NCBI GenBank assembly: GCA_040285825.1 | Contig: JAUPSS010000004.1 | Span: 1,240,001-1,304,000 of the forward strand | Source of the DNA: Eukaryota sp. TZLM1-RC | Lineage: Eukaryota; Protista; Metamonada: BaSk clade | Length of the DNA stretch: 64,000 nucleotides | Direction of reading: 5' to 3' | Shown: piece by piece, positions 5,299 through 58,282 of the stretch | Numbering within the stretch: the stretch's first letter is position 1 | Layout: each line of letters opens with the position of its first letter | The notes under the pieces: generated by a model | Databases searched by the model: none | Seen by the model: only the letters and a program-made list of their open reading frames with translations | Told to the model about the DNA's origin: nothing | Position numbers and translations under genes: made by a program

Positions 5299-5412
5299 CT
5301 GCTTCTTCCCCTTTTTCAAAGATAATAGGCTTATATAAATATGAATCTAAACTATAAATTAATAACTAAATAACTACAAATAATCTAAACTGATCTAAAC
5401 TAAGAATTAGCG

Positions 5413-7057: not shown

Positions 7058-7185
7058 TACTTGTTCAAGACATCCAGAACTACGTCTTGGCTGGAAGATT
7101 TAGAAGATCTTCACAAACCTCTACAAGCCCAGCTGCAGAACTTAACTTTGCTTCTTTTTCGAATGTCCAAGACTTTCACCAGTAA
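7057..7185 (+). pseudogene. 3' remnant of an accessory ORF convergent with the IS630 transposase
   Basis: Open frame ...AAELNFASFSNVQDFHQ* resembles the C-terminus of ORF 15874-16662 (...AANVTDPHMF*). Confidence 0.5.
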
Positions 7186-7244
7186 TCAATAACCGTTTCA
7201 AAGATCAACATTTGCGAAAAACTTTATATAAAACAACGTATTGT

Positions 7245-7839
7245 CTAGTCAGTTAATGCATCTAACAACTTGGAACCAGGCCTTGAATAAGGAGAATCGA
7301 CATTTCGCAGATCTATCCATCCACTGTGATTAAAAAATCCTCGACAGTCAAAGTCAACCAAACCTTGCAAAGCACTTTGGACAACTTCAATACCACATAC
7401 TTTATTTTGGTGATGAGTAACGTCCCTAACTTTTCGGCGTAGAACAGAGAAGAACATTTCTATAGGATTCATGGCAGGACAGTATGGAGGTAATATTCGA
7501 TAGTGCAAGCCACACTTACGAACAGCATGGATTAAGTTATCAGAAGTGTGAATACGACAGCCATCAAGTACTAAGACAGACCGATGTCCAGGAAAGGTGT
7601 AGAGGTTCTTTGAATTGATTAAATCGTGTAAGAAAGAAGCAAAGCCTTGTCGGTCAAAATGACCTTCTTGAACATGGAAAAAAAGTGCCCCTGTGACATC
7701 AATAGCAACAACAGCACTTACTTGGACCTGTAGCATTTCAGGTTGTACAGTGTATATGGATTGTCCTTTGGGAGAACGACCATAGGAACGAGCATTGACT
7801 TGTGTTTTAAACGAAAGTTCATCAATAAAAACCAGTTGA
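7245..7839 (-). mobile_element. IS630/Tc1-like DD34E transposase, 5'-truncated
   Basis: FIDELSF, VLDGCRIH and LPPYCPAMNPIE motifs, with 34 residues between the second D and E. Confidence 0.9.
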
Positions 7840-7918
7840 CTGGAGAAAAATCCACAATAGGCATGATGCTGACAACGAGTTCGGTCGTTATGTAGAAGAT
7901 TTTGGAGACGTCTTAAGA

Positions 7919-9367
7919 ATGACCATCTACATGACCGACCTGACCATCCCTGATTTAATTAGAGGAAGCAGTGGGCTGATAACCATATATCCCGCTCTAA
8001 TAGCCGAGTACTTCCTTATGGGTTTGGATAACTTTGCTATATCGAGCGAACTCCTCCTAGTATGGACTAGGGAATCCTTGTGGGACTCGCCGAACAGAAC
8101 AACTCTACTCGATTTAATATCGACAACGAGAAAGCACTTCCTCGCTTGGTGTTTCACGGCAGGAAATAAGCCCACAATGAATGTACTAAGGAGCAGGGCT
8201 AACGAAGAAGATATTCCTTTGGGACTCACGGCGATGACAACTTATTCAAGAAAAATAACCCCATCAGCCCAGGCTCCAGCAAAACGAGCACGACGATCAG
8301 GTAAAAAGTCGAGAGGAACCCCTCAACACAAGTACATTCCTGAAAAACATGAACGAGAAGGGTCGAAATTCTGTACATTCTGCAGTAACGTCGAAGGTAA
8401 CAACCATGTTGGCTACACTGTATTCGAATGCAAAGACCCTCGTTGTGCTAGAAGCAGAGTTTCCAAAGAAGAAAGATTTAGATTGGGAGAACAGGAGGCG
8501 CCTGCTAGTAGAGGCAGTGTAGAAAGGGGTCGAGGTGGCCGAGGTAGACGTGTACATAGATTTGAATTTACAGGCCGTGGAGGCCGTTTTAGAGGACATA
8601 AAGGAAGAGGTCAGTATAGACCTATATATAACACCAACACAACAGAGGATATATCATCAAACGCATCCCCTACTGAGTCAAAACCGACCCGTTTGAGTAC
8701 GGTTCCTCACAGACGGATCAACAACAGCAACCGGAATAGCAGGACATGCAACTTACCTAATCGGGTACATATCAATGCAATCATTCACAACCAATCAACA
8801 ACCGATTTAGGAAACCCGGTCAACAACTTTCCAACAGCTCAACAAAATCTCTTAATTCCTCTACAAATTCACCAAACCAGCTCTGATATCAATAGTATTT
8901 TTGACATTAATTTTACGGTTAGTGAAAACCACATCAGGTCCCAGCGTTCTCCATTTCTAAGACTAAAAATATCAATAAATGATATTAAAATGATTGCAAC
9001 TATAGATTCGGCTGCGTTTTGTTCAGTTATTACTGCAGATTTAGCTGAACAATGCCATATGTCAATCAATAGCAAGGATACTATTCAGTTCTTACCAGCT
9101 AATAATGTATCCACAAAATCGCTAGGGAGTGCGACTGGTATTCTGTCGTTCAACGTAGGAAGCATTGCGCAACAAGTTCACTATAAACATACTCTTCCCT
9201 TAATCCCGGGTACGAACAAATTATTAATAGGAACAGACATGTTAAAGCACTTCGGCTTTAGACGGATGATGGTCTTTTTATTAGATGAGACAAAGAACAC
9301 CGCACTTTGTCAAATGCAGAATCAGAATTCGACTCTAGAATCGCTCAACATTCGATTGGAAACTTAG
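7919..9367 (+). CDS. Gag-protease polyprotein of Gypsy family B
   Basis: 482-aa ORF with CCHC-like knuckle, RGG-rich segment and retropepsin DSA/IGTD motifs. Confidence 0.8.
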   Translation: MTIYMTDLTIPDLIRGSSGLITIYPALIAEYFLMGLDNFAISSELLLVWTRESLWDSPNRTTLLDLISTTRKHFLAWCFTAGNKPTMNVLRSRANEEDIPLGLTAMTTYSRKITPSAQAPAKRARRSGKKSRGTPQHKYIPEKHEREGSKFCTFCSNVEGNNHVGYTVFECKDPRCARSRVSKEERFRLGEQEAPASRGSVERGRGGRGRRVHRFEFTGRGGRFRGHKGRGQYRPIYNTNTTEDISSNASPTESKPTRLSTVPHRRINNSNRNSRTCNLPNRVHINAIIHNQSTTDLGNPVNNFPTAQQNLLIPLQIHQTSSDINSIFDINFTVSENHIRSQRSPFLRLKISINDIKMIATIDSAAFCSVITADLAEQCHMSINSKDTIQFLPANNVSTKSLGSATGILSFNVGSIAQQVHYKHTLPLIPGTNKLLIGTDMLKHFGFRRMMVFLLDETKNTALCQMQNQNSTLESLNIRLET

Positions 9368-10880
9368 ATAACCAATCATCAAGTCCTTCTGATTTTGAGC
9401 AGCAATTAACAAGATCTGGATGTGAAATAAAATTAGGTGATATTAATAATAAATTAAAATTAATGAGTCTACTGAAATTATTCAGCGATGTTTTTAGTGA
9501 AACTCCAAATAAAAAGGTTTTATTGTAGTCCTCTTACAATCCCCTTTCGCGATGAAAACGCTATTGTACACAAACCTGCTAGATGGTCAAACCCAAGCAA
9601 ATTAGAAATAGCCAACAAAATATTCGACGAATTGATAGAAATGGGTTATGCAGTTGAATCCAATTATAGATTCAGCTCTCTTATTGTCCTAGATTATTTA
9701 CCCAGATAATAGAAAACCTAGATTAACTAGTGACTTTAGTGGTAAAGAAGGTGTTAATGCCCATACAATTTCTGTCGAACCTAATTTACCGCGGATTAGT
9801 GATATATTAGAATTTTTAAGCAGAGCTGATTACATAGCCACACTTGATTTACCAAAAGCTTTTTGGCAAATGAATGTAGCAGGAAAAGATATTGCAAAAA
9901 CATCAATTTCAATACCTGGAAGGTCCATCATGTTTAAAAGAGCTTGCTGACATCAAAGCTATTACAGTAGCTGACGCAATTATCACCCGAGTTTACGCAA
10001 TTTTTGGAGCCCCTCAAGCCATCCACTCCGATAATGGAACCGAGTTCAGTAATGCCATATTTGCCTGCCTTTGCCGAAAATCTCCCACTCTACATCTATT
10101 CTCCACTTCCACTAGTCTAACGGGTTAGTTGAAAGGCAACATCGAGTTATCCTCCAGAATCTGAGAAAAATCCTTTTAGATTTCGCTGACTACGATAACT
10201 GGTCTGATTATCTCCCATTTTGCCAGTTAGTTGCTAATAGTACTTACAGGAAATCACTCAACGCCACCCCATATAAATTAATATTTGGATCTGATGTTTC
10301 CCCTAGATTGCTACCCTTTGAAATTCTTCAAGCCTTGTCACCAAAATCAGATAATCTAGATGTCCCAGAATATATGACTTACCTAGCAAATATGTCTACC
10401 CAGTTGTTAGACAAATGGAATGCTGAACTTGAACCTGAGTTGACCCATATTGCTCCACCAGAACTTAAGTTTAAACCCGAAGTTGGATCCAGAGTTTTCG
10501 TCTTACGAGAAACTCCTAATAAACTGCACGGACACTATGTAGGTCCGTACGTTGTTAAAGAAGTAACTACTCGAAGTTCACTCCTAGTGGAAAACCCAAT
10601 CACTAGAACTTGCCTGAAGACATCTATCCATCTAATCAAGTTCTGTCTGTCCTCCCTGCCCGACAATATCCTGAACGCGTATGTCGCCGCCGACGCAGAA
10701 GAATTGCTAGTAGATGCAATCTTAGATGTCTCTGATGGTCAAGCCACCATCCTTTGGTCTGATGGTACTCAGACGACTCAACCCGAGACCACAGTCAAGA
10801 ACACTACCGCCTATCATCGTTATATAAAGATGATGAACCTGGACAAGCCCCGAAGAAGAGGCAGACGGAAGAAGAGGTAG

Positions 10881-11077
10881 TGTAGGCTTATGCCATTATA
10901 GTTTATTATAGTTTATTAGAAGTTACAGTATCACGTGATGACACGTCATCACTAGTTTATCTGCAGAGAGAAATTCTTTTTTCTGATTATTCCCGTTCCT
11001 TGTTATAAACCCCTGTTTCATAAGTTCTGTTTATACAAGGTTCCTTGGATGCTAGCAAACCCCACAATAGTGTAACA
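10881..11077 (+). repeat. 3' LTR of Gypsy family B (197 bp)
   Basis: Starts TG directly after the PPT and integrase stop, ends TGTAACA. Core agttacagtatcacgtgatg is shared with 31810-31998. Confidence 0.7.
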
Positions 11078-11448
11078 GATTAGCTATTGAGACGAGTAAC
11101 TCAATACCCCACTACTCTGAAAGTAATGGACTTGTAGAACGTAAACATAGAGACGTTTTACAATGTTTGAGGCAATTTTTAATAGACTTTAATGATTACA
11201 GAAATTGGTCTACTTATGTACCTATATCCCAACTATTAATAAATTCTAGTAAAAGCAGAAAAACTGGTTTTACCCCCTACGAACTTATGTTCGGTTCTTC
11301 GATTAGTCCAAGAACAGATCCTGCTAATATTTTTGGGAATTTATAAAAATTCGAAACTAATATCCCTTTATTAAATGACATTAAAATGAAAAACACTCGT
11401 CTACAAGAAAAAAGGGAACAAGCAAAACGTCACCAAACATTTAATACA
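11078..11448 (+). mobile_element. Additional Gypsy family A integrase fragment
   Basis: Diverged nucleotide match to 13330-13705 (PHYSESNGLVERKH). Confidence 0.85.
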
Positions 11449-11449
11449 A

Positions 11450-12385
11450 AACACGGCAGGAGAAGATACTTGCCGGTCTTTATGTTAGTGAGGAGCAATC
11501 TGCTGATGAAGACTGCCTATCACATGATTGCCGGTGTATCTTGACATCTGAAGAAGAAGAGGAACTACTAGCTTTCGTTGAAAAGGATCCGCTTTCTTTC
11601 TCACGAGAAATCCGTTCTTTCGTCCGCTCCAAGTTTAATAAAACCATTTCCATAACAACTGTTCACAGAATACTTGTTAGACATGGGTACTCATACAAAA
11701 AGTGCCAGAATCTTGTCCGAAGGGCGAAGTTGTTGCTTATAACAAAGTTTGAGACTAATTATATGCTTGACATTGGACTTGTACTACATCATCAACTGGT
11801 TTTTATTGATGAACTTTCGTTTAAAACACAAGTCAATGCTCGTTCCTATGGTCGTTCTCCCAAAGGACAATCCATATACACTGTACAACCTGAAATGCTA
11901 CAGGTCCAAGTAAGTGCTGTTGTTGCTATTGATGTCACAGGGGCACTTTTTTTCATGTTCAAGAAGGTCATTTTGACCGACAAGGCTTTGCTTCTTTCTT
12001 ACACGATTTAATCAATTCAAAGAACCTCTACACCTTTCCTGGACATCGGTCTGTCTTAGTACTTGATGGCTGTCGTATTCACACTTCTGATAACTTAATC
12101 CATGCTGTTCGTAAGTGTGGCTTGCACTATCGAATTTTACCTCCATACTGTCCTGCCATGAATCCTATAGAAATGTTCTTCTCTGTTCTACGCCGAAAAG
12201 TTAGGGACGTTACTCATCACCAAAATAAAGTGTGTGGTATTGAAGTTGTCCAAAGTGCTTTGCAAGGTTTGGTTGACTTTGACTGTCGAGAATTTTTTAA
12301 TCACTGTGGATGGATAGATCTGCGAAATGTCGATTCTCCTTATTCAAGGCCTGGTTCCAAGTTGTTAGATGCATTAACTGACTAG
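11450..12385 (+). mobile_element. IS630/Tc1-like DD34E transposase, one frameshift, N-terminus truncated
   Basis: Winged-HTH region (ISITTVHRILVRHGYSYKK), FIDE, LDGCRIH, NPIE. Near-identical inverted copy at 7245-7839. Confidence 0.9.
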
Positions 12386-12572
12386 ACAATATGTTGTTTT
12401 ATATAAAGTTTTTCGCAAATGTTGATCTTTGAAACGGTTATTGATTACTGGTGAAAGTCTTGGACATTCGAAAAAGAAGCAAAGTTAAGTTCTGCAGCTG
12501 GGCTTGTAGAGGATTGTGAGGATCTTCAAAATCTTCCAGCCAAGACGTAGTTCTGGATGTCTTGAACAAGTA

Positions 12573-14231
12573 ATTCTCGTTCCATTAATTCTATATGTAG
12601 TATAAATATACCAGATACTTTACTTTCGAATTACGAGATACCTCCAATAGACGAAGATTCTGATTCGGACTTTGAAGACATCCCATCAATTTCATCCCTA
12701 AGTAGACACCAGGACTTACCTATTTTTTCTTCTTGGTTCTCTAAAATAAGATCTGAACAACAAATAGCCAAAAATAATAATGACCCTCTATTTGAGAATG
12801 CAATTCTAGATGAAAATACTCAAATTTGGAAAAACAATAAAGATAAAATTTTAATTCCAAAAAGCCTCAGAAAACAGGCACTATTATTAATTCATGGATT
12901 GGTTCAATCAGGCCACCCCAGCAAAAACGACAGTCTACATAAACTGTCCAAAAGCGATTTTTTCTGGCCTAATATGAGAAAGGACCTCATGAACCACATC
13001 AAAAGATGCCCAACTTGTCAAAAAACGCCACCAGTTAAAAGAATAAAAACACCTTCCACAGGTTCCCTTTGGGCAGATCGTCCTTTTGCTAGATTAAATG
13101 TCGACACAATTGGACCTCTGAATACTGATAGTGATGGTAATAAATACTTATTAGTATTTGTAGATTCTTTTACTGGATATTCAATTTTAGTCCCTCTAAA
13201 GGAACTCAATGCCTTAGAGACCGCAGACGCTTTGATTTGGAACGTTTGCGCAATTTTTGGCATACCTATGTTAATTCATAGCGATAATGGTTCTGAGTTC
13301 GCCAATGAGACTTTTAAAATAGTGTGTAATATATTAGCTATTGAGATGAGTAACTCAATACCCCACTACTCTGAAAGTAATGGACTCGTAGAACGAAAAC
13401 ATAGAGACGTTCTACAATGCTTGAGGAAATTATTAATAGATTTTAATGATTATGGGAAATTGGTCTACTTATGTAGCCATATCCCAACTATTAATAAATT
13501 CCACTAAAAGCAGAAAGACAGGTTTTAGACCTAACGAACTAATGTTCGGATCTTCGATTAGTCCAAGATCGGACCCTGCAAACATATTAGGAAACTTATC
13601 AAAATTTGATTCCAATATACCTTTATTAGACGATATTAAAATGAAAAATACTCGTCTGCAAGAAAAAATGGAAGAAGCAGAGCGTCATCAATCATTAAAT
13701 ACTCCGATTTCAGTAGACAATACTAATTCGCGTTCTATAGTATTTAATATTGGTGACTATGTCCTACGTAAAACCAAACAGAATAATAAATTGCATGGAT
13801 CTTGGAATGGACCCTTTTTAGTAATAGACCAACCTTCCAACTCTACTTTATTATTAAAAAATCTTATCACTGGCATCGAATTAAAGGCTGCTAAGAAAGA
13901 TTGCAAAATCTATAACGCTGAGAATCCCCAGGATATCGAATTTCTTAAGGCAGTCGCAGCAGGCGATGCTGAAAAACACGTTATAGAGAAAATCCTCTCA
14001 GAATACCACTCTGATTCAGGTAGTTGTTGTACTGTTCAATGGTTTGGCGGTGAGACAACAGAAGAGCCTCTTATTGGATTAAACATTCAGAAGCTTATAA
14101 GTTATTTAATAAGGATAACAAGAAAATTGGAAAACGTACCACTAGTCGACGCCAAGGTACCTCCAATGAGTCTCCGCCCTCTAAGAGGCCTAGACGTAGT
14201 AATAGAATTGGGAAGCGGAGCTAATTCTTAG
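12573..14231 (+). mobile_element. Ty3/Gypsy family A pol 3' part (integrase plus chromo-like tail), frameshifted
   Basis: Inverted near-identical copy of 5413-7057. Confidence 0.9.
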
Positions 14232-14349
14232 TTTATATCGATTATTTATATTATGTCGATTATATATATTTATAGTTATTTCGTTATTTGTATATAGTTT
14301 TGTTTCATATTCATATAAGCTGATTTATTTTGAAAAAGGGAAGAATCAG

Positions 14350-14427
14350 TGTTGGTGCCCTAAGGCTTATATAATATGAATAGAAAATAAATGAACTTTT
14401 CCTTACTACAATAGACTTTAGGCAACA
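14350..14427 (+). repeat. Very short LTR (78 bp) of Gypsy family A
   Basis: PPT gaaaaagggaagaa followed by TGTTGG...GGCAACA. Confidence 0.75.
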
Positions 14428-14715: not shown

Positions 14716-15793
14716 ATGCCTTTGACCTTTGAAATTCTTTCAAACATCAATTCTCTCCGTCAGCTGTTGTCTATAAAACTTCACGCGTCTGAGGACACTC
14801 GATCTCGAGCATGCGTTGCATTTTACTTTCAATCTCTTTCACAGTCTGAGGTAACACTTCTATTCGGAGCTTCACAATCTTCTCTGTCACGTTGGCTAAA
14901 CCAAGCTATCAATCCTGATCTGTGGGGCCATACAAACGCAAACGAACCCGCATTATAACCCAAAAGGAAATCATTATATTATGTCAGCTTGTTGACAAAC
15001 ATCCACAGCTTTTTTTATATCAAATGCAACAGAAGACTATCTATCTATTTGGTAAATATGTTTCCCTCAGCACAATTCGAAGGGTGATAATCAATGCTGG
15101 TTACACTCACAAAGTGGCAACCAAACTGGTCAAACACTGTAAAAGGAGGTTAATTGAAAATTTCGAAAACTTATTTACTAATCTAATAGGAACTGTGGTT
15201 CATTCACAATTATTGTTCATTGACGAACTATCATTTAGGCAAGAACAGTTTTGTCGTAAGACTGGTTGGTCACCTGAAGGTGAACCTGTTATCATTCCAG
15301 TTAAGCAAATGAATGCAATGCATATCTCTTTGGTTGTGTGTATAAATCAATGGAGTTATGTTACGGGTCATATGAAAGAAGGCCATTTTAACCGTCATGA
15401 ATTTATTGGTTTTTCAAAAGATATTATTGAATCTGGAATAACACACAGATTTCCAGGAAACAGATCTGTTTTGGTATTGGATGGATGTAGAATCCATACT
15501 GGACCTGAAATTTTCCATGCAGTTCGTAAGGTTGGCTAAGGTATTTGATATTGCCACCATACTCACCTAGGTCTAATCCAATGGAAACTTTTTTTGCTAT
15601 ATTACGCAAAAAAGTTCGAACGGAGGCACAACTTTACCCACAAGCTCCTGCTACCCAACTCATTATGTCATCGCTCGAATCTTTACGCAAATACAATAGT
15701 TCTTCTTTATTTGAGAGGGCAGGATGGGTTCATGGTGAGTGTTATAAATCACTATATTTGTCTAATTCGAAACTAGCAGTCTATGTCGAATAG
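14716..15793 (+). mobile_element. Second-family IS630/Tc1-like transposase, full length with two frameshifts
   Basis: HTH (FGASQSSLSRW), VSLSTIRR, FIDELSF, FPGNRSVLVLDGCRIH, LPPYSPRSNPME. Confidence 0.9.
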
Positions 15794-19559: not shown

Positions 19560-20053
19560 TTCACACATATGTCGAGAACATAATGTACAGATATGTTCAT
19601 CATCAGAAAAGCGAGGCTAAGTTATAAAAAAGAATGGCTAAGAAACAGTGGAAGCAAGAAGACACTATCCTTATGTTTGGTGACAATCACAATAACTCAA
19701 AGAATTCAAAGCATCATCGATCAAGTAGATGTGTTGGATGGAGAAATTTCCTTAAGAGAAATGATTACACAATATGTTTAGTTGATGAATGCAAAGTGTC
19801 CAACTTGCCAGTAAATGTTTTTCTTGACGTTAAGAATTCTATACCATGGATGAGAAAGAACTATCCTACTGTGAAATGTCATGCTTTGTTAAGATGTCGA
19901 TCTGATGTTGGAAAAGAATGTGATGGAAAGGATAAGGTATGGAATCGTAACAAGTTAGCATGTATCAACATCAAGGCACTTGTAGATTATTTTGTAGAGG
20001 ATAGTGTTGGTGATAGGTCTTCATATTTGTCTCAAGTTATAGTTTTTTACTAG
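19560..20053 (+). pseudogene. Decayed Fanzor1 C-terminal (RuvC-II, zinc finger, RuvC-III) fragment
   Basis: QKSEAKL...ILMFGD...CLVDEC...VKCHALLRC...WNRNKLACINI...GDRSSYL. The catalytic NRD motif is altered to NRN. Confidence 0.8.
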
Positions 20054-29573: not shown

Positions 29574-31436
29574 TCACTGCCGAGTAAAGCGAAATTCACA
29601 CAGTAGATTTTTGTTCAAATGTTCGGCCAAATCTTCACTCTTGACACATAGCTGTTTTGTGAACTTATCACTCCTTACACGATCAATAGAACCCCTTATA
29701 TTACTGCAGACTTCAAAATCAAACTCATCTGATGGATTGAAAAACTGGAACTTGTTGTCAGAAATTGGACCAATCAGAGACAAATTTTGAACTCGCTGTG
29801 ACATATCTTTCTCCTTTTTTCCATCAGAACGAAAATAGGTCACTGCCTGAGACCATTCAGAACGAGTTCCGTTATTGCACTGATGATCAAGTTGATGACA
29901 TGAACTCATATAGGCAGAAGAAATTTTGTAAACCAAAACAGAACATTCTGTGCGCACGAATGAAGCTTTTGGTGCGAAACCCCAAGATCTGGCATATAAA
30001 GGTGATTGTGTAAGGTAAAAAAATGGCTCGCATGATTTGTGAAAATCACCCAATCCATCTGGATTCATAAAAAGATTTATACCTCTATCCATAATTACCT
30101 TTGCAGAGTTGGTTGTTGTTCCATGAAACCAAATATGCTCATCCGACGCCAGATCTTTCTTTATTTCTCCTACAATACACTTTAACTTTTCGTCGTCTCC
30201 AGCGCCAAGTCTATGAAAATTAGAATCAATTGCTGAGACGTTTAAATCTGAAATCTCTTGACACACTGAGTCAAATGATGCTGACTCCACATTAGCACAA
30301 TTAGTGGTTCCAAAAAGATTAGCACACAAGAGTAATAGGGAATGATGTGTGGGTTCCTTGCTGCAATAGTTTTTAAGAAATTCAGTGAGCATTTCACTCA
30401 CATGGGGTTTGAGACATAAATGAGTAACTAAAAAGTCGATATCTTTCTTGGCATTGTGCAAATTGTCTACTAAACTTGTGGATTGGCGAAAGACCTCAAA
30501 TGTAATACTAGAAATATCCATATTAAGAGAATCAATAATAGAACAATCAAACCATGTGGGCAAATCAAATCCAAACAAAGACAATGGTGATTCTTCAATG
30601 CTTTCACCGTTTAACAAATCAAAGACTTTGTTTGTTGCATCTGATAAAATCGAAGCTAGTTTCTCCAAAATGGTTTGTTTCAATTCACTAGATATCTGGG
30701 CCAAAAAGAGCTGGCAAATACCAAGTTGCAGAATGGGATATAACCCCATAAACAAAGACTTGTCATCAACGTGGAGCTGGGACAAACCTTGTAGATGAAC
30801 TTCCAATTGATTTTCATCGTTGTCTAAGAGAGTATAAAATAATGATTGCAAAATCTCAACTGCAGTAGAACTGCAAATTAAAGTTTCAGTTGCCTTATGT
30901 TGCCATGCTCTAGCAGCTTTATCAACATCGGCAATTATGTTATGCAAATGTGTCAAATCAGTAGTTGATAATCCCAACTCCGTTTGTGATTTTGACAATG
31001 AATTATAAAACGCACGAATACCTTCACAAAATGAATGGGCTACGGCACGTTTGCGACAGCCTAAGTGAAAAGAAGAAGGAACAACAATGGAAGAATAACC
31101 AGCCAATTCCTGGCGGAACCTACTTAGAAGATTATTGCGTTGGGCAAAAAATGTTGCAGAACCAAAACGGCTGATGAGCGAATTGAGTGAGCTTGACTTG
31201 TCTAATAGAGGAAGATGAGCCAAAAAGAAACCAAAATCTCCTTGAATGACATCATTTAGAGACACTTCAACCTTTTCACGACAGAGAGGGCAAGATACAG
31301 TTCCATTGGTTTCTGAAGAACCGGAGATCAGATCAAAAAGACAAAGAAGGCAGAAGCAGTGATCAACAGAGGTGGAATGCAGAACAATCAGCTCATGAGA
31401 AGGCCGAAACAAACAAATAGGGCAGTGATCTGACAT
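29574..31436 (-). CDS. RING-finger plus C-terminal ADP-ribosyltransferase-like (DUF3990-like) protein
   Basis: N-terminal CPIC...HCFCLLC...CPLCR. C-terminal WFHGTT...GDF...FFYLT...ARSW...IGPIS...QLCVKS. Confidence 0.7.
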   Translation of the reverse strand: MSDHCPICLFRPSHELIVLHSTSVDHCFCLLCLFDLISGSSETNGTVSCPLCREKVEVSLNDVIQGDFGFFLAHLPLLDKSSSLNSLISRFGSATFFAQRNNLLSRFRQELAGYSSIVVPSSFHLGCRKRAVAHSFCEGIRAFYNSLSKSQTELGLSTTDLTHLHNIIADVDKAARAWQHKATETLICSSTAVEILQSLFYTLLDNDENQLEVHLQGLSQLHVDDKSLFMGLYPILQLGICQLFLAQISSELKQTILEKLASILSDATNKVFDLLNGESIEESPLSLFGFDLPTWFDCSIIDSLNMDISSITFEVFRQSTSLVDNLHNAKKDIDFLVTHLCLKPHVSEMLTEFLKNYCSKEPTHHSLLLLCANLFGTTNCANVESASFDSVCQEISDLNVSAIDSNFHRLGAGDDEKLKCIVGEIKKDLASDEHIWFHGTTTNSAKVIMDRGINLFMNPDGLGDFHKSCEPFFYLTQSPLYARSWGFAPKASFVRTECSVLVYKISSAYMSSCHQLDHQCNNGTRSEWSQAVTYFRSDGKKEKDMSQRVQNLSLIGPISDNKFQFFNPSDEFDFEVCSNIRGSIDRVRSDKFTKQLCVKSEDLAEHLNKNLLCEFRFTRQ

Positions 31437-35713: not shown

Positions 35714-36217
35714 TTAACAACAGTCTAAAGAATCCTCGGCAATTCTGCGCTGTCTACTCTTATACTTTTTAAAATTATCTCTAAACAAAACAGCCGCATC
35801 AACATTAGCTGGAGAATTGGGGTTGGGCTCAACCAAGACATTGACAATAGATATCAGGACACTCTCTATTGAATGGGCTGGAGACCACCTTTCATCTGGA
35901 TGTTCTCCTGAGAGTTCAATGTCCTGGGTGTCAGAAGCCGAATGGAGGATAGAGATGCACATCTTACCGTCGGGGTATACGTTAGGATGGTACATTGGGG
36001 TAAGAAACTTGAATTCGGGTGGAGAGTGGGGAAAGTCATCTGGGAAAGACATAATACCACGTAAAAGGCCACCTTCTAGCGGGCTGTTTTGTGGTCCGTA
36101 TATGGTAACAGCCCAACGGTAAATGTTATCACCATCTAACCCTATGTATATACCATTTATAGGCCTGGATTGGTAGTGGGAGAACTGTTTTTGAAGGTAT
36201 ATAAGGGATGGTTTCAT
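35714..36217 (-). CDS. Ubiquitin-conjugating enzyme E2, Ubc7/Cdc34 class
   Basis: HPNVYPDGKMCISILH with active-site Cys, acidic loop insertion, ERWSP, SPANVDAA. ATG at 36217 gives a typical E2 N-terminal helix. Confidence 0.93.
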   Translation of the reverse strand: MKPSLIYLQKQFSHYQSRPINGIYIGLDGDNIYRWAVTIYGPQNSPLEGGLLRGIMSFPDDFPHSPPEFKFLTPMYHPNVYPDGKMCISILHSASDTQDIELSGEHPDERWSPAHSIESVLISIVNVLVEPNPNSPANVDAAVLFRDNFKKYKSRQRRIAEDSLDCC

Positions 36218-36507
36218 TGATTGGATGATGGATACTGTGAATTTCACTTATCATGCATTCCCCTGTGAAATTCACTCCTGTTTTCAACTTTCTCAATGTC
36301 TACTCACAGGCTGTAAGAGACATGTAGCATCATTTGACAAAGACAATCATGATCTTCATCAATGGGCTACCTCACTTAAATACACCTACTGCATTCACAG
36401 AACAAAGCCTCGCGACTTGATGTATCTAAGTGGATCTACCAAATGCTACTAAGGTATTTGTAGATCGGTCTCAAAAGTTTTTGTTTCTGTATGCTCACGT
36501 TCCCTAT
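36218..36507 (-). ncRNA. Putative Fanzor omegaRNA (scaffold plus 3' guide)
   Basis: Five consecutive stem systems with G-U pairs that work only on the minus strand, plus a GNRA tetraloop, directly 3' of the Fanzor ORF. Confidence 0.7.
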
Positions 36508-38485
36508 TCATCTCCTCAGCAGAGCATCTGGGCAAATGTATCTTTCCGGCCACAATTCCGCTTTCTTCTTAATTTGAATATTTTTTTGCAGCGGAAATAT
36601 CTCTGTCATATACTATTTGACACTCAGTACAAATACGCATCTGCCATGAGCCTGCTTGAATATTCTCGGCCATGCAACAACTTGACATTTTGCTTGTATT
36701 AAATTCACTGGTTGACAAGTGCTTCACGTCCTTTTGATAACACAACCATTTTCTGAAAGCCCTTGCTGATCCATATCGATTGACTTTTCGGCAATGAGAA
36801 GGGAAATTAGCAGAACCCACAGCAAGATAGAGTTTTTCAGGATGTCCAGCCAGACTTTGAAATTTGTTGAGACTCTCTCTGAACCGTCTCTCTTTTCGTC
36901 TGCGGTTATCAAATTTAATTATTTTCCATTTCTGGCGATTACTTTCCAAATACACTTTCCTCCTGACCAAATTCCAATGGTTCAAATATTGGTTGAAATT
37001 TTGAACGGAATATTGGTTGGGAGAGTGTTTACTGGGTGAATTTTTTGTCATGTATCTTCTGCCAGTTGGACAAGGGATAACTCCACATTGATTATCATTT
37101 AAGAAGTAACCACATAATCTTGATTGGCCAAGATCAACGCCGATAAGGGGCCTTTCAGGTAAAATTTCGACTGGATGTCTACGTCTTCGACGGGGCATTT
37201 TTTTAGTACCCTTCAACTGTGTTTCTCTGGTTTTGTTGGCATTAGGGTCACTTTTCATTTCACTTTTTGATCTTCTTTTCTTTTTCGGTGGTTCATCCAG
37301 CTCATCTGTGTTTTCTGAGTCATTATTTTTACCTTCAAAGGTCAAAAGCAGTTCATTACCATTAGTTTTCAATAAAATTTTGTTAAATCTATTTTTCAAA
37401 CTTTTTCTGTTGATATTGAATTTTTGGTAAGGACATTGTTTGAATACTCGTTTCAGACATGTATTTTTGATGAACTTTGTTTTGGAAGATAATCCTTCAA
37501 TAAGTGGAAATTTTTTCACAGAGTGGAAAATTTGTGAAGGTACCTCAATAAATTTAGAACCTTTATGAGAAGCTAAAGGTATTATTCTAAATTTCTTCCA
37601 GCAATGCATATGAGAAAAGAAAGTGAGTAAGTATTGTGAAATTTTAAGATTGAAGAGAAAAAGCTCACTAATTTCCTTCGATGAAAAAGTGATTTTATCA
37701 TGTGAGGACAGTAGGGAGGCAGTGGTAGGAAATCTTTGAAAGAGATTCAAGATAAACCTACATGCATTCAATAAAAAAAATCTTTCTCTTGAATTATTCA
37801 AATTGAAATTGATGAGGTATTCAAGAACAGAATCAACTACTACTTCCTCGGGTTGGGCTAGTAGTTCATCTGGCAAAAGTGAAAGAATATTATTTGCAAA
37901 GACATTTGTTTTATTCAGGGCTCTACAATGAGCACGAATAAAGTTTTTTGTCCAGGATTGACAAATTTTGGGTAAACATGTCTTAACGTTGGAGGCCAAT
38001 TGACGAGCACGACAGGCAAGATAAGAAGAAAGCCCTTTTCTATTGATAAAATTACAGTTCTGGGACTGCAGCCAATCATTGAGGAAAAGATTGAATGAAT
38101 TTCTGTAAGGCACTAAAGAATTTTCCCACACAGAAACAAGAGACCTGTCTTGTGGGCATTCAGGAAGAAATCCATTGTAAAAGATATGGAGTAATTGGCG
38201 TTGGCCTTTAGATGTGGAAGGCTTTGGAAAAGAACCAGTGGTGATGACGGTCATAAACAGATACCATACATCCTGTTCCACTAAAGCTCTTGATGCCAAC
38301 GGAAAATTTAGAAGAAAAGATTGAAGTAATAAAGACGCTTCATGACAAATCTCGGTGACCACAGGAAGGTCAGTCCGAATTTGTTGCACCGCTGCAGGGG
38401 TCAGCAGCGAGTTAAGTGCACAAGACCGAGTGAATACACGTGATACAGAGGGGTGTCTGACATGTAGTGAGAATAAAGAGCTCAT
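36508..38485 (-). CDS. Fanzor1 (TnpB-like RNA-guided RuvC endonuclease); one extra A in an A7 run near the 3' end
   Basis: RuvC-I GVDLG, RuvC-II SEFNTSK, CC...CTEC zinc finger, RuvC-III DRDISAA. The ORF track ends at 36569. Removing one A gives AAKNI...CPDALLRR* ending at 36508. Confidence 0.9.
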
Positions 38486-38718
38486 CTATCAAATTTTACA
38501 CTTGTCACCCATTTTCGACTTCTGGTTGCCTATTCTGGGAGGTTTTTAACCCTTAACTTGGTTTTGGGAGGTTTTCACTATTCCCACACTTTCCCACACT
38601 TTCCATTTACTTTGTAAGAATTCTCCAACTGAGTAGTTCAGCATCTCAGTTCATTTTATCCACGTCCTCCATTAATCTCAACAGGTTACCACTGTTTGAC
38701 GTTTTGTGTTATTAGCCG

Positions 38719-39129
38719 ATGTCTAAACTCAATTCTTTACAAACCAAGGTGATTCAGCTTAAACACACAATCACTACTTATCAAAACTACTGCAAATCAC
38801 ATAATCTTCCTCTTCCACAAGTAAGTGATGTATTTTTCGCTCCAGACACACTCCAGAAGGTTTCAAATGCGTTCTCGCTTCGTTCTGATCTCAATGACCT
38901 TCGCCATGATATCAATGCAGAACTTACCTCAATTGAATCTCAACTACAGTCCTCTCTTTCCCTTGCTCTGTCGTCTCTACACTCTCATGATGCGCACATA
39001 TCACAACTTAACCAAGAAATGAGCAGTGTTCAATCACTAAACCAGCAACTTGAGTGTGAAGTATCTAAATTAAATGAAACTACTCAATCTCAGAGTCTGC
39101 AGCTTTCCGAACTTGAAAATGATGGATAA
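38719..39129 (+). CDS. Coiled-coil protein, probably 3'-truncated
   Basis: Heptad-rich 136-aa ORF divergent from the Fanzor and abutting an RLE fragment. Confidence 0.5.
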   Translation: MSKLNSLQTKVIQLKHTITTYQNYCKSHNLPLPQVSDVFFAPDTLQKVSNAFSLRSDLNDLRHDINAELTSIESQLQSSLSLALSSLHSHDAHISQLNQEMSSVQSLNQQLECEVSKLNETTQSQSLQLSELENDG

Positions 39130-39219
39130 TAATCCCTCAAATTCAATTAATTCAAATAGACTTAGAATTTGATAAGATTCCAATTGTTTCAAACAAAATT
39201 GTAAAAGACCAAAAATCAC

Positions 39220-39950
39220 TCTCCTCAAACTCCACATCTATTATAGGACACTTAGCTACAGCATTTTCTTCATCAAATTTTCCTAGTGATAACAACGAGC
39301 TAGAAAGAAGGTTGTACATACCCTAAAAATAGCAAAAACAATTCTGCATTGCCAAAAAGTTTAGTCAAATATTCTTCCAGTTGTATTTTTCAGAATAGAT
39401 GAGAAATCGTCCAAAAAAGATACTACATTTTACTTAAGCATTCAAATAAAGAACAAGCACAACAACAAGAAATGTATTGAATATGTGAGTTGGAATTCAG
39501 ATTATTGATTTTTTCTGTGTACTTGATAATTTTGGCTTCTTCTGCTCTACGTAAAGGTGAATAATAACATAATGTCAGTTTTTCATTTGAGCTGTTTGAT
39601 ACATCAGTAAATCTGACATCAATAATGATCATTGATCCATCAAGTCCGGGAACTAGCACATCACCACGGCTGCCACCAAATGAATTTCTGTCAGATTTAT
39701 CAGCCAAACTTGAAAGGGAAAGTTCAAAACAAATTCAATCTGGTAGGATTTAAACATACAATAGAGCTGATCACGAACTGCATCATGAATTTTTGATCTA
39801 AAAGTAATAAAACGATTACATTTAAATAAATGGATTGGAGTGACAGGCTTTCCACATTTACAAATTAATCCATAAGGAAGATTATCAGGCCAAATAAAAT
39901 TCGAAAACGCATAGGCAATACAAAGCAAGTGTCATTGAGAAACAAAAAGA
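39220..39950 (-). mobile_element. Degraded RLE 3' fragment
   Basis: WPDNLP...CKCG...HDAVRDQLY...SRGDVLVPGLDG...AEEAKIIKY. Confidence 0.8.
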
Positions 39951-42049: not shown

Positions 42050-43930
42050 GTAAAATTTTTGAGAAGTTTTTTATGGCGTTCACGGATTCAATTTGCTATT
42101 ATTAAAAGATTACCTCGGTTTTTTAATCGAATAAGAGAAGCTTTAGCTAGACAGCAAGCAGATAAAGATTTTGTAGAAGAAATCTTGGTTCAATGATAGT
42201 CGTCCCATTAGTTATGAGTTAATTTAATTAAGTGTGTAAATTCAATAAATATTCTTTGTGCTTTGTTACAATAAAAATGCAAAAGGAAAAACTTCTGATC
42301 GCTGCTTGAAATGCCGCATAGTTTATAACTACCATCCTCCCATAAGAATACCTCAAGCAATATATGCCGGAATTAATACCGTATTTTCAAACAACATGCA
42401 ACACAAATTCTAATTTGCATTTTGGTTATTCCATTTTGAGTTCATCAAGTGGTGTAAAGTAAGGGGATCTGTTAGGACCTCCTTTGTTTTGTTTGGCCAA
42501 TCATCCTATTTTATTGCAAATTCAAGAGATGGTTCTTCGCTGAAAATGATTGAATATATGGACAATGTGGTTTTTATAGATGATTAAAATATTGTGAAAC
42601 AAGCAACTGTATGTTTTAAAAAATTATTATCCAAAATTGGTCTCCGACTTAATTTACTTAAATGTGTTTTGTTATCGAATTCTCCAATATCCACAGTTTC
42701 TTCAGCGCTATTTGCTACAGATGTACTATTTCGCCAAAATGAATCCAATGTTTGCATGTGATTGGATTCAAGTAATGCAATCAATTCAATCAGTCGTTGC
42801 AGTATTAATGGTGCTTTGTTGCAATATTTGCCAGAATTAATGACTTATTTTTAATCAACTTATAGCATAAATTCCAGTTTGTATTTTGCTAATTCCATTG
42901 TAAATTCATCAAGTGGTGTAAAGCAAGGAGATCCGTTAGGACCTCTTTTGTTTTGTTTGGCCATTCATCCTATTTTATTGCAAATTCAAGAGATGTTTCC
43001 TTCGCTAAAAATGATTGCGTATATGGATGATGTTTTTCTTATTGGTGATTTAAATATTGTGAAAGAAGCAACGTTTGATGGTATTGAAATTGAAGACAAA
43101 TTATATTCAATTGATGCTATTCGTCATTTGGGTTCGTTTTTAGGAAATAATGATGAAATTACCAAAAAATTGTTTGAAAAGTTGAACTCAATTTCTGGCA
43201 AAATTGACCGAATGATGAATTTAGATATACAAAAACACATCCAATTTACCATTATAAGACTGTGTTTTAGTTCCAATTTTAATCATATATTTCGATCTAC
43301 AAATCCTCTCGTCACTAGACCTTTGGCTCAAAAGGTCAATGAGTTACGTGCAAAAGTTCTGTGTCAATTACTGGGATGTAAAATGTTTCAAATTCCAGAC
43401 CATGCTTACCTTAGTCCACATTATGGTGGTTTAGGGTGGACGAAGGCTTCTATTCTTACTTCATGTGCTTTTATTTGTGGATGTAGAAATGCAATTTTTG
43501 AGTTTTCTGAAAGATTTGCTGATTGAAAAGATTTATTAATGACAACACAAAGTTCCACAGCTTTTGCATTAAATGAAGAATTGTCAAAAATTGATGGAGA
43601 TAAATTTGTGAATTTGTAAATTTGAGAGTCATTGAACCCAACATGAATTCTCATAAATGAAACGTAACTACATACCAACCATGTAACAATAACATTTTGT
43701 GTGTAGTTACGTGGAAAATAAATTGTATTCAAATTGGAAAAAAATTGTTTCAAATAATATTTTATATATTTATTGAACTTGCACACTTAATTAAATTAAC
43801 TCATAACTAATGGGACGACTATCATTGAACCAAGATTTCCTCTACAAAATTTTGATCTGCTTGCTGTCTAGCTAAAGCTTCTCTTATTCAATTGAAAAAT
43901 CCAGATAATCTATTAACAATGGCGAAATGA
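42050..43930. mobile_element. Scrambled pieces of the EILVQ-family CRE-like retrotransposon, including the RT core
   Basis: GVKQGDPLGPLLF and AYMDD in ORF 42879-43526. 3' tails at 42050-42250 (+) and 43760-43930 (-). Confidence 0.85.
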
Positions 43931-44148: not shown

Positions 44149-45292
44149 ATGGATTCACTCTCTGAAGTCTTGTCCTTTTGGTCCTTTTGTTTATCCCAAA
44201 ACCTTTGCGAATACCTCCAACATCATTTGAATGCTCCGCATTTTACTATTCCAGATAATATAGCAATTTCTGATGCTGTTCTAACAACCCTCTTCAATTA
44301 CTGGCGCACAAAGCCTTCCTTTTTCGAAGTTGTGTCTGAATACGAGACACTGAAACCATGTCTTTTAGACTTGGGATTCAAAGATGACTTTGTTACAAAG
44401 CAGTTTTCCACAGGCTATATCCCTGAACTTGCTGTTTGTGATATTGTCTGCAGGGTCATGAGGTATAGTTCTTCCAGAGAAAATTACCAAAGATAATGAT
44501 ATATTTGCTCAACCAACAGTTAAGGTTGGTAGGACCAGATCACCTGTTCAGGTTGTAAAAATTGGTACTTCTCAACAATTACCAGCTATTTCCTTTCATG
44601 GTACTTTATACTTTCATGCGTCTTCGTATATGGCAGCAGTAAACAAGTTGAAAAATCATTTTGACTTGGATCAGTTCACAACCAGTCTAGGTAAGAGGTC
44701 TGATTTTTCCACCAAAGGAGCCTTGTATCTCACTAAACATTTTGCCCAGGCTTGGAAATGGGCTCAAGGGAAGATAACCTGCGATCCAGCCTCCTCAAAG
44801 GCAGTTATTTATGTTTTAGTTGATGACAATAACACTTTCTGTGATGGTGCTAATAATTTGTTTGAAAATGAATTGGCGTTTGACGTTTGGACACGTATTT
44901 GTCGTGGGAATGAATCCAAGTTTAAGATCGCTTACCCTCCAAATGGTGTGGAAAATCAAGAAGATTTTGAGGAAATGGAAGCAGATGCTGTCATTGGTCC
45001 TCTAGCTAAAACGAGGTCGTTTAGACAATACCCTATTGAAAATTCTGATGCTTGCAACGATGTTGAAGGAACATACTGGAAATTTGATGCAGAGTTTGAT
45101 GACCTTTTATCTGTTTCATCTAGTCATGTTTCCACTAATGATGGTGAAGTTGTCAGGTTTTTCCCCAAAGTAGAAAGAGTTCAAAATTCACACCAACTGG
45201 CTATTTTGAACAATTGGAAGGCCAGATCATTAATTAATTCCTTACAGTATATTATTATTGTGGAAGCCAAGAATAGAACAACTGCTTGTTGA
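44149..45292 (+). pseudogene. ADP-ribosyltransferase-like (DUF3990-like) gene with one frameshift near 44440-44490
   Basis: The frame of ORF 44630 is open back to at least 44462 and includes LYFHASS, then SDF...ALYLT...AWKWA...IGPLA...QLAI. Confidence 0.6.
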
Positions 45293-46129: not shown

Positions 46130-46790
46130 GTAGCTGATTTCATACATATTGTCAGTTGTAAAATGTTCCTTCAGTTCAGGTCAATTTTACACAATTCAGT
46201 TCGTGATGTGACACATGAGATGTTTAGGTGTCATGGTTTTAATGGGAAAATAGAACCTCTACTGAAACACTACAGTGATAACGATATTTTCAATTGTCGT
46301 CGTGGAGATTTGATTGTACCCTTTACTAACTCATCTCAGGCGGTTGTTGATTTTACTACCGTTGACCCTTGTGCAAAAGTGTACTTGTCTTCAGTTTTTA
46401 ATGATGAAAATTCGCATCTGTGTCAGGCGGAGGCACGTAAGAATCAGTTGTATGATGAAGTAATGAGGAATCTTAATCAAAATTTATACTCTTCTTTTGT
46501 CTTCATTCCGTTTGCAATTTCGATTTTTGGAAGTATTGGTAAGATAGGTCAAAAGTTTCTTGATTCTTTTGCCAAGTTATGTCTTGAACGTAACAGATTA
46601 TTTAACATCTCCATTTGGCGTAATAGAATCATCTTTGCTTTATTTCGAAGCTTTCCCAAATACTTGTCTCAGATATTCAAAAAGTTATATAGAAGTGTAA
46701 GGGTAGATGTGGAGAATTTTTCTTCTTATAAGTTCTAGCTCTTAGCTGTATGTTGTCACTCTATAATAATAATAATAATAAATTAAGTAC
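46130..46790 (+). mobile_element. RLE 3' fragment (family SYKF)
   Basis: HNSVRD...RRGDL...VDFTTVDP...AEARKNQLY. Confidence 0.85.
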
Positions 46791-47189: not shown

Positions 47190-48030
47190 CCCAAACCGAT
47201 CTCTTTTTAATTTACAGTTTTGCTGTAAAAAGTTTCAACAAAAATTGTCAAAGATTTTTGAAAGCTTGGATTTTGATGTTAGACTTGGCTTGGCCAAGAA
47301 AAAGAATCCCGCTTTTGCAAATCTTTTACAAGATATGTGTGACAGTACTTCTTTTGCCTTAGTAACAACAATTCCCCAAGTTTATGGTGCTCTCTTAACC
47401 GATTCTGCTTGGACTCTGAATATGAGATTTCGTTCCTTTATCTGGCCTGATAATTTACCTCATAATTTAATTTGTAAATGTTCTCGAGAAATTACAATTA
47501 CTCATTTGTTAAATTGTAAACATTTTATTACTTTTAGAAGCAAGGTTCATGATGCTGTAAGAGACCAGTTATATTGTATGTGTAAGTCTCATAGAATTGA
47601 ATCCTTTTTGGAACCTCTGTTGTCAAATCTGTTTGATGCTGAAGATAATTTTCATAAGAATATTAGAGGTGATGTACTATTACCTGGATCAGATGGAAGC
47701 TTTATTTTATTGGATGTAATGTCTGTTGATCCTGGTAATTCCTCAAATGAAAGGCTAGTTTATTCTGAAATTCATAATCCCCTTTCAAATGCTGAAAATT
47801 TCAAATTCAAAAAATACAATGAACCTTTGTCCAAATTGGCCAGTCTACAGCATGCAAAATACAATTTGTATCCATTTGTATTTTCCCTTTTTAATTCACT
47901 AGCACCAACTGCTTTACGTTTTTTGGAAGATTTTGAAATGATTGTAAAGAGAAGAACTGGCAGAAATTTCAACAAATTGTTTTGGCAAAAAAAATTTTAG
48001 ATGTTGATTTATAGGTTTTGAATAAAATTT
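47190..48030 (+). mobile_element. RLE zinc knuckle plus endonuclease fragment
   Basis: CKC...HLLNC...HDAVRD...RGDVLLPG...AENFKFKKY. Confidence 0.85.
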
Positions 48031-57659: not shown

Positions 57660-58282
57660 TATTTATTTTCTACGAAGAATCAAATAAAAACAAAACAAAC
57701 TAAAACACATAAGAAACTAAATTCTCCACGCCAACTCTTGATGAATCCTTATAAAGTTTGGACATCATTAAACTCAAGTACTTGGGAACACTTCTGTACA
57801 AAGCGAAAATGATACGATTCTTCCATAAATTCTCTGCAAAATTCTTACCACTTGAACGACACAAATTACCAAAATCATTGATGAAATTCAAGGCAGACTG
57901 TCCAATGTTGCCAAAAATCGAAAAGGCAAAATGAATAAACGAAAACTTCGAGTAAAGGTTCTTATTTAAATCATTTAATATCTCAGTATATTTATCTCTC
58001 TTACGATCTTCAGCCTTGTTTAAATGACCATTAGTACTCAGTAAAACATCATCGCGATAAACAAAAGCAAAGGGATCAACTGTAGTGAAATCAACAACAA
58101 CTTGAGAGGAATCCACAAAAGGAGCAATTAAATCACCTCGACGTGTATTAAACAGATTATCATCACTATAATGCTTCAGCAACGGTTCTACTTTGCAACT
58201 AAAATTGTAACACTTGAACATCTCATATGTCACATCACGAACGGCATTATGAAGAACTGACCTATATTGGAGAAATTTCTTT
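57660..58282 (-). mobile_element. RLE 3' fragment (family SYVF)
   Basis: Near-identical to 45495-46105. Confidence 0.85.

What the first reader, a model, noticed from the sequence alone, without database searches (positions are those of the whole stretch)
36200..36247. Predicted Fanzor guide is the 5' leader of a ubiquitin E2 gene
Seen: exactly 19 nt (AGTATCCATCATCCAATCA, 36236-36218) separate the last hairpin from the ATG of the intact E2 on the same strand. The E2 has no unstructured upstream region of its own. Known: TnpB/Fanzor guides derive from sequence just outside the element 3' end. Inference: the element sits in the E2 promoter or 5' UTR, its guide would target the empty allele (homing-like drive), and E2 transcription may start within or read through the omegaRNA.
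Basis: inference. Interest (0 to 1): 0.75.

Follow-up and report, generated by a model that had tools for sequence, protein, structure and literature searches.

The report
Fanzor insertion beside ubiquitin gene start
A multicopy mobile element carrying a likely RNA-guided DNA-cutting gene (Fanzor) ends 15-17 bases before the start of a ubiquitin-conjugating gene and is bracketed by a 10-base repeat, so its predicted guide would aim at that gene's start in any chromosome lacking the insertion, which is probably the ordinary behaviour of a known kind of element.

Summary
The 19 nt are real and the E2 is intact. Contigs of other copies put the element's fixed 3' end at ...CACAG-TA (36233), so only 15 nt (36232-36218) are copy-specific flank. 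That is the native guide length of Fanzor1, so the predicted guide is the E2 leader. The left neighbour is the 5' piece of a multicopy coiled-coil gene carried along from a donor locus. The unit ends at about 39123, and TATCCATCAT occurs at both ends (0 of 9081 control sites match as well). The inferred empty allele joins 39129+ to the leader and has TTATTA before the guide match, a Fanzor1-type TAM. By analogy the cut would fall on the E2 start codon. A fixed 3' end, variable 5' end with captured DNA and a 7-19-bp duplication are described for the Fanzor1 elements CRe-1/2/3 and MCi-2. A guide taken from the flank is a general Fanzor property. omegaRNA ends, E2 transcription, an empty allele, cleavage and drive are untested. 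Verdict: new (metamonad) member of a known kind, with a clean, testable homing substrate.

The parts
35714..36217 (-). Ubiquitin-conjugating enzyme E2 gene, 167 aa, intact from Met1, with HPN motif and catalytic Cys
   Evidence: Pfam UQ_con E 3.2e-39; 67% to GEMRC1_014045 and 55% to paralogue P9112_005479; cluster of 1 member
36218..36232 (-). 15-nt copy-specific flank = E2 5' leader = predicted omegaRNA guide
   Evidence: contigs of other copies diverge here; G-free like 3 of 5 other non-Fanzor ORF leaders checked, against 8.8% of window 15-mers; guide role inferred
36225..36234 (-). Right copy of the 10-bp direct repeat TATCCATCAT (target-site-duplication-like); begins with the conserved TA
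   Evidence: exactly 2 occurrences in the window
36233..36236 (-). Fixed 3' terminus of the element (…CACAG followed by TA)
   Evidence: 7 of 10 loose-ended contigs leave at 36231-36236; TA present in 6 of these 7
36237..36275 (-). Terminal 11-bp hairpin; its arms plus AG are also two direct copies of a 13-nt motif (36275-36263, 36247-36235)
   Evidence: 2 contigs end at the inner copy, 36263
36233..36507 (-). Structured non-coding 3' region, predicted omegaRNA scaffold
   Evidence: fold z -3.09; no Rfam match; RNA not shown
36508..38485 (-). Fanzor1-like nuclease gene. As assembled: a 638-aa ORF (38485-36569). Family frame: ATG 38463 to stop 36508. One-base slips in a C run (38453-38450) and an A run (36587-36581). 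RuvC D451/E594/D629 present
36233..38595 (-). Fanzor element proper, lacking at least 21-30 nt of the family's 5' end
   Evidence: 4 of the listed loose ends at 38595 and 1 at 38594 continue with a shared other sequence
38596..39123 (+). Captured DNA: 123-bp spacer plus the first 135 codons of a multicopy coiled-coil gene (ORF 38719-39129)
   Evidence: cluster of 8 near-identical proteins, 116-419 aa; X1 and X2 contigs leave the window at 39123 and continue in the full gene
39119..39128 (-). Left copy of the 10-bp direct repeat; its last 5 nt (ATCAT) also match the donor gene (microhomology)
   Evidence: junction set independently
39127..39132 (-). TTATTA, the TAM-like motif that would precede the guide match in an empty allele
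   Evidence: TAM role inferred from known Fanzor TAMs
39129..39306 (-). Probable displaced native upstream region of the E2 (AT-rich); LINE-like repeat from about 39307 onward
   Evidence: inferred from the direct repeat; 39307-39898 matches the LINE-like insert in P0113

Best explanation
A Fanzor1-like element ends at 36233, 15 nt before the E2 start codon, inside a 2.9-kb unit bracketed by a 10-bp direct repeat; the unit was likely copied in by one-ended transposition, and its predicted guide would match the E2 leader of an empty allele. Shown: fixed 3' end, captured host-gene piece, direct repeat, intact E2. Inferred: a donor copy beside the full coiled-coil gene had lost its own 5' end. 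Copying started at the 3' end at a TA, ran past the missing terminator into the neighbour gene, and was joined at a 5-nt microhomology, duplicating 10 bp and moving the E2's upstream DNA 2.9 kb away. Predicted by analogy: an omegaRNA ending in TA plus the 15-nt leader, loaded on an intact family member, would cut an empty allele (TTATTA then 15 of 15 match) at about positions 14-21, on the ATG. It would spare the filled allele, which offers CAGTA before the full match and only 8 nt after the TTATTA copy. The position next to the E2 is most likely chance.
For: Right end: 7 of 10 loose-ended contigs leave at 36231-36236 with different flanks. Left end: X1 and X2 contigs leave at 39123, and the loose letters read (translated by hand) LIEKERLITE, the continuation in P0105-P0108 and P0111. 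The coiled-coil gene occurs at 116, 131, 136, 232, 239, 295, 295 and 419 aa. The 10-mer occurs exactly twice in 64 kb; 0 of 9081 control sites reach 10 nt. Donor: P0036 (tag 008633) shares 7 of 7 covered minority residues with the window copy and P0011 (008625) 2 of 3; the full gene is tag 008627. Same anatomy reported for CRe-1/2/3 and MCi-2 (PMC3627910 passages). Guide 14-15 nt, cuts after 16-17/20-21 (SpuFz1) or 14-17/14-16 (GtFz1), minimal activity at 10 nt (PMC10432273 passages). 3' TSD in the scaffold and 5' TSD in the TAM (PMC13565253 passages; bioRxiv 2023.08.09.552727 passages).
Against: No transposase for this family was identified, so the mechanism rests on anatomy. A repeat was tested at one locus only. 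Of the 8 other coiled-coil places, only 1 has a Fanzor tag within 2 loci among the 29 Fanzor-family tags I saw (14 of the 82-member cluster plus 15 from other clusters). So adjacency of the other truncated copies to a Fanzor is not shown, and one of them (239 aa) ends in a frame slip, not a truncation. Three copies share one end (291 codons), which fits later block duplication as well. The contigs come from 2 samples of 1 study. The X1 piece over 38595 has only 30 letters on the element side, under the tool's 31-letter rule. The window ORF has two frame slips and lacks the conserved last 24 aa as assembled. The family's TAM is unmeasured.
Confidence: 0.58

Rival explanations
1. Footprint of Fanzor-guided cutting. 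A normal copy first sat at this TA on one allele. Its guide directed a cut in the other allele near the E2 start, and repair copied the element from its 3' end, switched to an ectopic copy, and rejoined by microhomology. The retained left stub of the target became the 10-bp repeat.
For: The left repeat starts at the TAM-like TTATTA and keeps 8 nt of target, less than the 14-21 nt cut distance. In Chlamydomonas, variable 7-19-bp repeats are common in Fanzor-bearing CRe-1/2/3 (10-70%) but seen in 1 of 200 Fanzor-less Helitron-1N1, and lie behind a T-rich tetramer (PMC3627910 passages).
Against: It needs an earlier normal insertion, two alleles and a template switch; none was seen. Ploidy was not found in the genome paper's main text ('ploid' 0 hits).
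Confidence: 0.15
2. Retrocopy. A LINE reverse transcriptase copied a read-through Fanzor transcript by target-primed reverse transcription, giving a fixed 3' end, a variable 5' end with microhomology and a 10-bp duplication.
For: Junction anatomy fits TPRT (own knowledge). LINE-like pieces are present in the window (YMDD motif in ORF 42993-43526; 39307-39898).
Against: No poly(A) tail and no donor guide sequence at the 3' end. It needs a transcript starting more than 500 nt upstream, antisense inside a host gene. [quoted passage not shown]
Confidence: 0.12
3. Passive templated insertion or block duplication (replication template switching) that happened to stop at the terminal hairpin; no element-specific transposition.
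For: Microhomology at the left junction (5 nt), and possibly at the right (one contig flank shares 2 more bases). Three coiled-coil copies share one end.
Against: The right junction coincides within 2 nt with the end that 7 of 10 loose-ended contigs share, which random switching would rarely give.
Confidence: 0.1
4. Assembly chimera joining repeats of different loci.
For: Repeat-rich window; both frame slips lie in homopolymer runs.
Against: A mis-join would not be expected to produce a 10-bp direct repeat in register at two independently defined junctions.
Confidence: 0.05

Closest known systems
CRe-1/2/3 Fanzor1 elements of Chlamydomonas reinhardtii (non-autonomous Helitron2, 'one-ended transposition'; PMC3627910)
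   Same: Intact 3' end, truncated or extended 5' end with captured DNA, variable 7-19-bp duplication behind a T-rich motif.
   Different: No Helitron2 ends or partner Helitron were shown here; the shared 3' dinucleotide is TA; single-exon ORF; the captured piece is 528 bp of a host gene.
MCi-2 Fanzor1 family of Mucor circinelloides (PMC3627910)
   Same: Near-identical 3' part, subfamilies of 2-3 copies with different 5' regions, 11-12-bp duplications, no TIRs, mobiliser unknown.
   Different: 10-bp repeat starting TA; 2.4-kb element; no Crypton fragment seen.
SpuFz1 / GtFz1 / KnFNuc / SfAV Fanzor1 (PMC10432273, PMC11423790, PMC10530073, bioRxiv 2023.08.09.552727)
   Same: About 650 aa, RuvC Glu next to the zinc finger, structured 3' RNA region, terminal stem-loop followed by a fixed TA and a variable 14-20-nt flank, AT-rich TAM predicted.
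   Different: Spu-1 has TIRs and a TA duplication; none could be tested here. The first zinc-finger pair is SSCC, not CxxC. Activity untested.
TnpB restorative homing (review PMC13565253)
   Same: Guide from the 3' flank plus TAM from the 5' flank rebuild a cleavable empty site.
   Different: Shown for excising bacterial IS. The passages I read give no eukaryotic demonstration, and a replicative one-ended element may leave no empty donor.

Membership tests
Fanzor (TnpB-like nuclease) | Motif D-X(125,275)-[TS][TS]-XX-C4 zinc finger-X(5,50)-RD | tested here: met
   D451, T597-S598 (145 aa apart), CC603-604 plus CTEC619-622, RD628-629. Deviation: the first CxxC reads SSCC. Pfam TNB: P0013 27.6 bits over the 26.3 cut-off; window ORF 22.8, under it.
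Fanzor (TnpB-like nuclease) | RuvC-II Glu just upstream of the zinc finger (rearranged site) | tested here: met
   E594, invariant in 10 of 10 aligned sequences; aligns with the SpuFz1 DEYKTS Glu.
Fanzor1 (versus Fanzor2 / Cas12f-like) | Closest to Fanzor1 by sequence or fold; enlarged REC | tested here: inconclusive
   Profile A2: best hit SpuFz1 8GKH, E 1.3e-8, over positions 258-611; GtFz1 E 0.018. The profile includes two distant members (P0065, P0066) that may drive this. P0013 alone hit only UnCas12m4a, E 0.013. The model is weak (pLDDT 51, pTM 0.35); Foldseek ranks Cas12f1 first and SpuFz1 seventh. No tree was built. Size and motifs favour Fanzor1.
Fanzor1 | Multicopy mobile element with conserved structured 3' region and variable flank | tested here: met
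   82-member cluster; fold z -3.09; different flanks beyond 36233.
Fanzor1 | omegaRNA expressed and extending 14-20 nt into the flank | not testable with these tools
   Needs small-RNA or RNP sequencing; only contigs could be laid.
Fanzor1 | RNA-guided cleavage with an AT-rich TAM | not testable with these tools
   Needs a TAM screen; TTATTA is only a prediction.
CRe-1/MCi-2-type one-ended Fanzor elements | Fixed 3' end, variable 5' end with captured DNA, 7-19-bp duplication | tested here: met
   Met at this one locus; not tested across copies.
Helitron2 | Hairpins at both ends and asymmetric TIRs; partner Rep/helicase | tested here: inconclusive
   3' hairpin present; the family 5' end is absent from this copy and only 30 loose letters were visible; no Rep hit among the 18 window ORFs scanned.
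Tc1/mariner-borne Fanzor1 | TIRs at both ends with a 2-bp TA duplication | tested here: not met
   For this copy: no inverted repeat pairing the two ends among the 25 longest of 70 listed, and the duplication is 10 bp. The intact family 5' end could not be examined.
Homing endonuclease / gene drive | Empty cognate allele exists and is converted | not testable with these tools

The most novel reading that the evidence does not exclude
The variable 7-19-bp duplications of one-ended Fanzor1 elements, unexplained in the 2013 description, are scars of the element's own RNA-guided cut followed by incomplete copying. This locus would then be a genomic record of Fanzor homing in a eukaryote, aimed at a start codon so that repair without the element destroys the gene.
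Probability: 0.12. Interest if true: 0.78.

Novelty: new member of a known kind. Interest (0 to 1): 0.4.

Why it matters
What Fanzors do in their own genomes is still open (discussion passages of PMC10530073 and PMC10432273). This locus gives a defined natural substrate: a fixed 3' end, a 15-nt guide, a predicted TAM, and a predicted cut on a start codon. It belongs to a young family with at least one full-length member (P0013, 651 aa). A search for 'fanzor' with 'metamonad' found 0 papers in the held library. With the whole genome in hand, the lengths and start points of the direct repeats across copies would test whether they are Fanzor cut scars. On its own, an insertion in a 5' leader is unremarkable.

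Tried and rejected
No whole genome is held, so other copies were seen only as contig ends and proteins. No RNA holder listed. No laid contig covered the E2 or its junction in X1-X5; the tool says a hole proves nothing, and the roughly 9-copy coiled-coil gene at depth 8 suggests single-copy DNA is near the drop-out level there (a rough reading, not a copy number). No joint showing an empty allele was listed. No related loci in metagenome or viral contigs (0 confirmed of 24 and of 2 pattern matches). No Rfam match. Single-sequence fold unusable (pLDDT 33); alignment fold weak. Bacterial promoter and terminator scan empty and not suited to a eukaryote. The loose-end motifs are not elsewhere in the window. 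Rejected: junction at 38600-38700 as the original flank (0-nt score at 38595 versus 10 at 39123). Synteny with GEM-RC1 could not be built; none of the 11 listed GEM-RC1 Fanzor tags is next to its E2 tag 014045 (nearest 014178), a weak hint of an empty orthologous site. Earlier-finding look-ups returned nothing. Paper searches for Fanzor with microhomology/truncated/Helitron/Chlamydomonas gave 0; Fanzor with one-ended and target site duplication gave only PMC3627910. No supplements were read; those of PMC3627910 list the CRe TSDs and could bear on the novel case.

Full report
Observation. The minus strand reads hairpin (arms 36275-36265 and 36247-36237), then the 19 nt 36236-36218, then the E2 ATG at 36217. 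The hairpin piece folds better than 200 of 200 shuffles (z -3.99), as does 36508-36218 (z -3.09). The E2 is a complete UQ_con protein of 167 aa. Among 161 candidates, three relatives passed 1e-40: GEMRC1_014045 (67%), a paralogue P9112_005479 (55%) and an unnamed protein (44%). The two named ones start at the same residue.

The nuclease. The upstream ORF (38485-36569, 638 aa) belongs to a cluster of 82 members; the 14 other listed members are named from Eukaryota sp. TZLM1-RC, which PMC11603281 names Skoliomonas litria, a metamonad (passages). Related families occur in GEM-RC1 and TZLM3-RCL. RuvC D451, E594 and D629 are present and invariant in the 10-sequence alignment. A profile of that alignment finds SpuFz1 first (E 1.3e-8), but it includes two distant members; P0013 alone hit only a Cas12m (E 0.013), and the fold search on a weak model did not separate Fanzor1 from Cas12f. 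I call it Fanzor1-like. Against P0013 (651 aa) the window copy slips frame near the start and before the last 24 residues. Both slips lie in homopolymer runs, and the laid contigs of X1-X3 show the family frame at both places. They may be assembly errors or private decay.

The 3' end. One search lists 10 contigs with a loose end. Seven leave the window at 36231, 36232, 36233 (three), 36234 and 36236, with different flanks; three leave further inside (36246, and two at 36263, the end of an inner copy of the terminal 13-mer). None follows the window past 36231. Six of the seven carry TA at 36234-36233 (one of them read from its loose letters after a mismatch). The runs are 2 samples of 1 study. 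So the element ends in CACAG plus TA, and 36232-36218 is site-specific. That 15-mer is G-free, like the leaders of 3 of 5 other non-Fanzor ORFs checked, against 8.8% of window 15-mers, which fits a native leader. Native Fanzor1 RNAs run 14-15 nt past the conserved region (PMC10432273 passages) or about 20 nt (bioRxiv 2023.08.09.552727 passages), with the 3' duplication inside the scaffold. The predicted guide is therefore the leader up to, or just into, the ATG.

The 5' end. Five listed contigs leave the window at 38594-38595 and go on with a shared sequence (34 further loose ends were not shown), so this copy lacks the family's 5' end. The next 528 bp are not unique flank. ORF 38719-39129 is the first 135 codons of a coiled-coil gene found as 8 near-identical proteins of 116-419 aa. 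X1 and X2 contigs leave the window at 39123 and continue in that gene. The full 419-aa form (tag 008627) lies beside Fanzor pieces 008625 and 008633. These share 2 of 3 and 7 of 7 covered minority residues with the window copy; the next best of the 27 proteins compared shared 4 of 9 and 5 of 13. That cluster is the likely donor.

The direct repeat. TATCCATCAT occurs exactly twice in the window, at 36234-36225 and 39128-39119, in register with the two junctions found independently. None of 9081 control positions reached 10 nt (3 reached 9). Its last five bases also match the donor gene. The simplest reading is an insertion of 36233-39123 into the E2 upstream region with a 10-bp duplication. The empty allele would join 39129 and beyond to the leader through one copy of the repeat, not 38600-38700. 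At most about 180 nt of non-repeat DNA lie there before a LINE-like piece starts at about 39307.

Consequences, all inferred. In the empty allele the six bases before the 15-nt match are TTATTA. Reported TAMs are TTA (KnFNuc, BaFNuc), TTTA and TA, CATA and TTAAN, ATN. In the filled allele the full match follows ACAGTA, and the TTATTA copy matches only 8 nt, below the 10 nt at which SpuFz1 is minimally active. SpuFz1 cuts after 16-17 and 20-21, GtFz1 after 14-17 and 14-16; the ATG is 16-18. A read-through RNA would carry the hairpin and two out-of-frame AUGs (36258, 36254), so it would probably translate the E2 poorly. Expression would then need a start within the last 17 nt. Very short 5' leaders in Giardia and Trichomonas are recalled knowledge, not tested here.

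Is the position special? In this gene-poor window, 4 of 9492 oriented TA sites lie within 20 nt of the 4 host-like start codons I chose, giving 2-7% for 50-170 copies. Tags up to 014239 on about 29 Mb of listed contigs imply several-fold higher gene density, so roughly 15-30% by my rough arithmetic. One such case needs no special explanation.

Comparison. PMC3627910 (passages) describes this anatomy for CRe-1/2/3 and MCi-2 and leaves the cause of the duplications open. The review PMC13565253 (passages) frames OMEGA systems as homing endonucleases that benefit excising elements. From 10.1101/2023.05.03.539051 I saw passages and section 5: the named relatives' assemblies are nanopore-based with Illumina correction, and ploidy is not mentioned. 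Searches found no paper with Fanzor and metamonad or tying Fanzor, microhomology and Chlamydomonas Helitrons; some searches were seen as listings, and the library is incomplete.

Verdict. New member of a known kind; interest 0.4.

Noticed in passing
window 19634-20053 (+): Reads by eye like a decayed C-terminal piece of a second Fanzor1-type family (ILMFGD, CLVDE, VWNRN motifs); no Pfam hit and no hit with the A2 profile.
   Followed up: partly
window 7245-7736 (-) and 15024-15539 (+): DDE_3 (Tc1/IS630-type) transposase ORFs; possible TA-targeting mobilisers, link to the Fanzor untested.
   Followed up: no
window 5249-14399: Two inverted, 96%-identical 2.6-kb LTR-retrotransposon-like blocks and a gag-aspartyl-protease ORF at 7919-9367.
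   Followed up: no
window 39307-39898 (-), 42993-43526, 46163-46738, 47335-48000, 57700-58221: Many pieces of LINE-like elements (YMDD motif; endonuclease-like tails recognised by eye); a relative is inserted inside Fanzor copy P0113.
   Followed up: partly
window 36263-36275: The terminal 13-mer is present twice, and 2 contigs end at the inner copy, so it may act as the recognised end.
   Followed up: partly
window 38575-38604 (-): The junction between the truncated Fanzor 5' end and the captured DNA lies in a short tandem of GGAAAGTGT-like units, suggesting an older microhomology join.
   Followed up: no
alignment A2, columns 841-860: Seven distinct-position Skoliomonas Fanzor rows plus the window copy have xxCC in place of the first CxxC of the zinc finger; the two outside relatives keep CxxC.
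   Followed up: no
window 29574-31436 (-) and 44630-45292 (+): A RING-like ORF and a second ORF with weak DUF3990 matches, below cut-off.
   Followed up: no
P0072 (TZLM3-RCL): A 1323-aa predicted protein joining XPG nuclease domains to a Fanzor; may be a gene-model fusion or an insertion at a gene's end.
   Followed up: no
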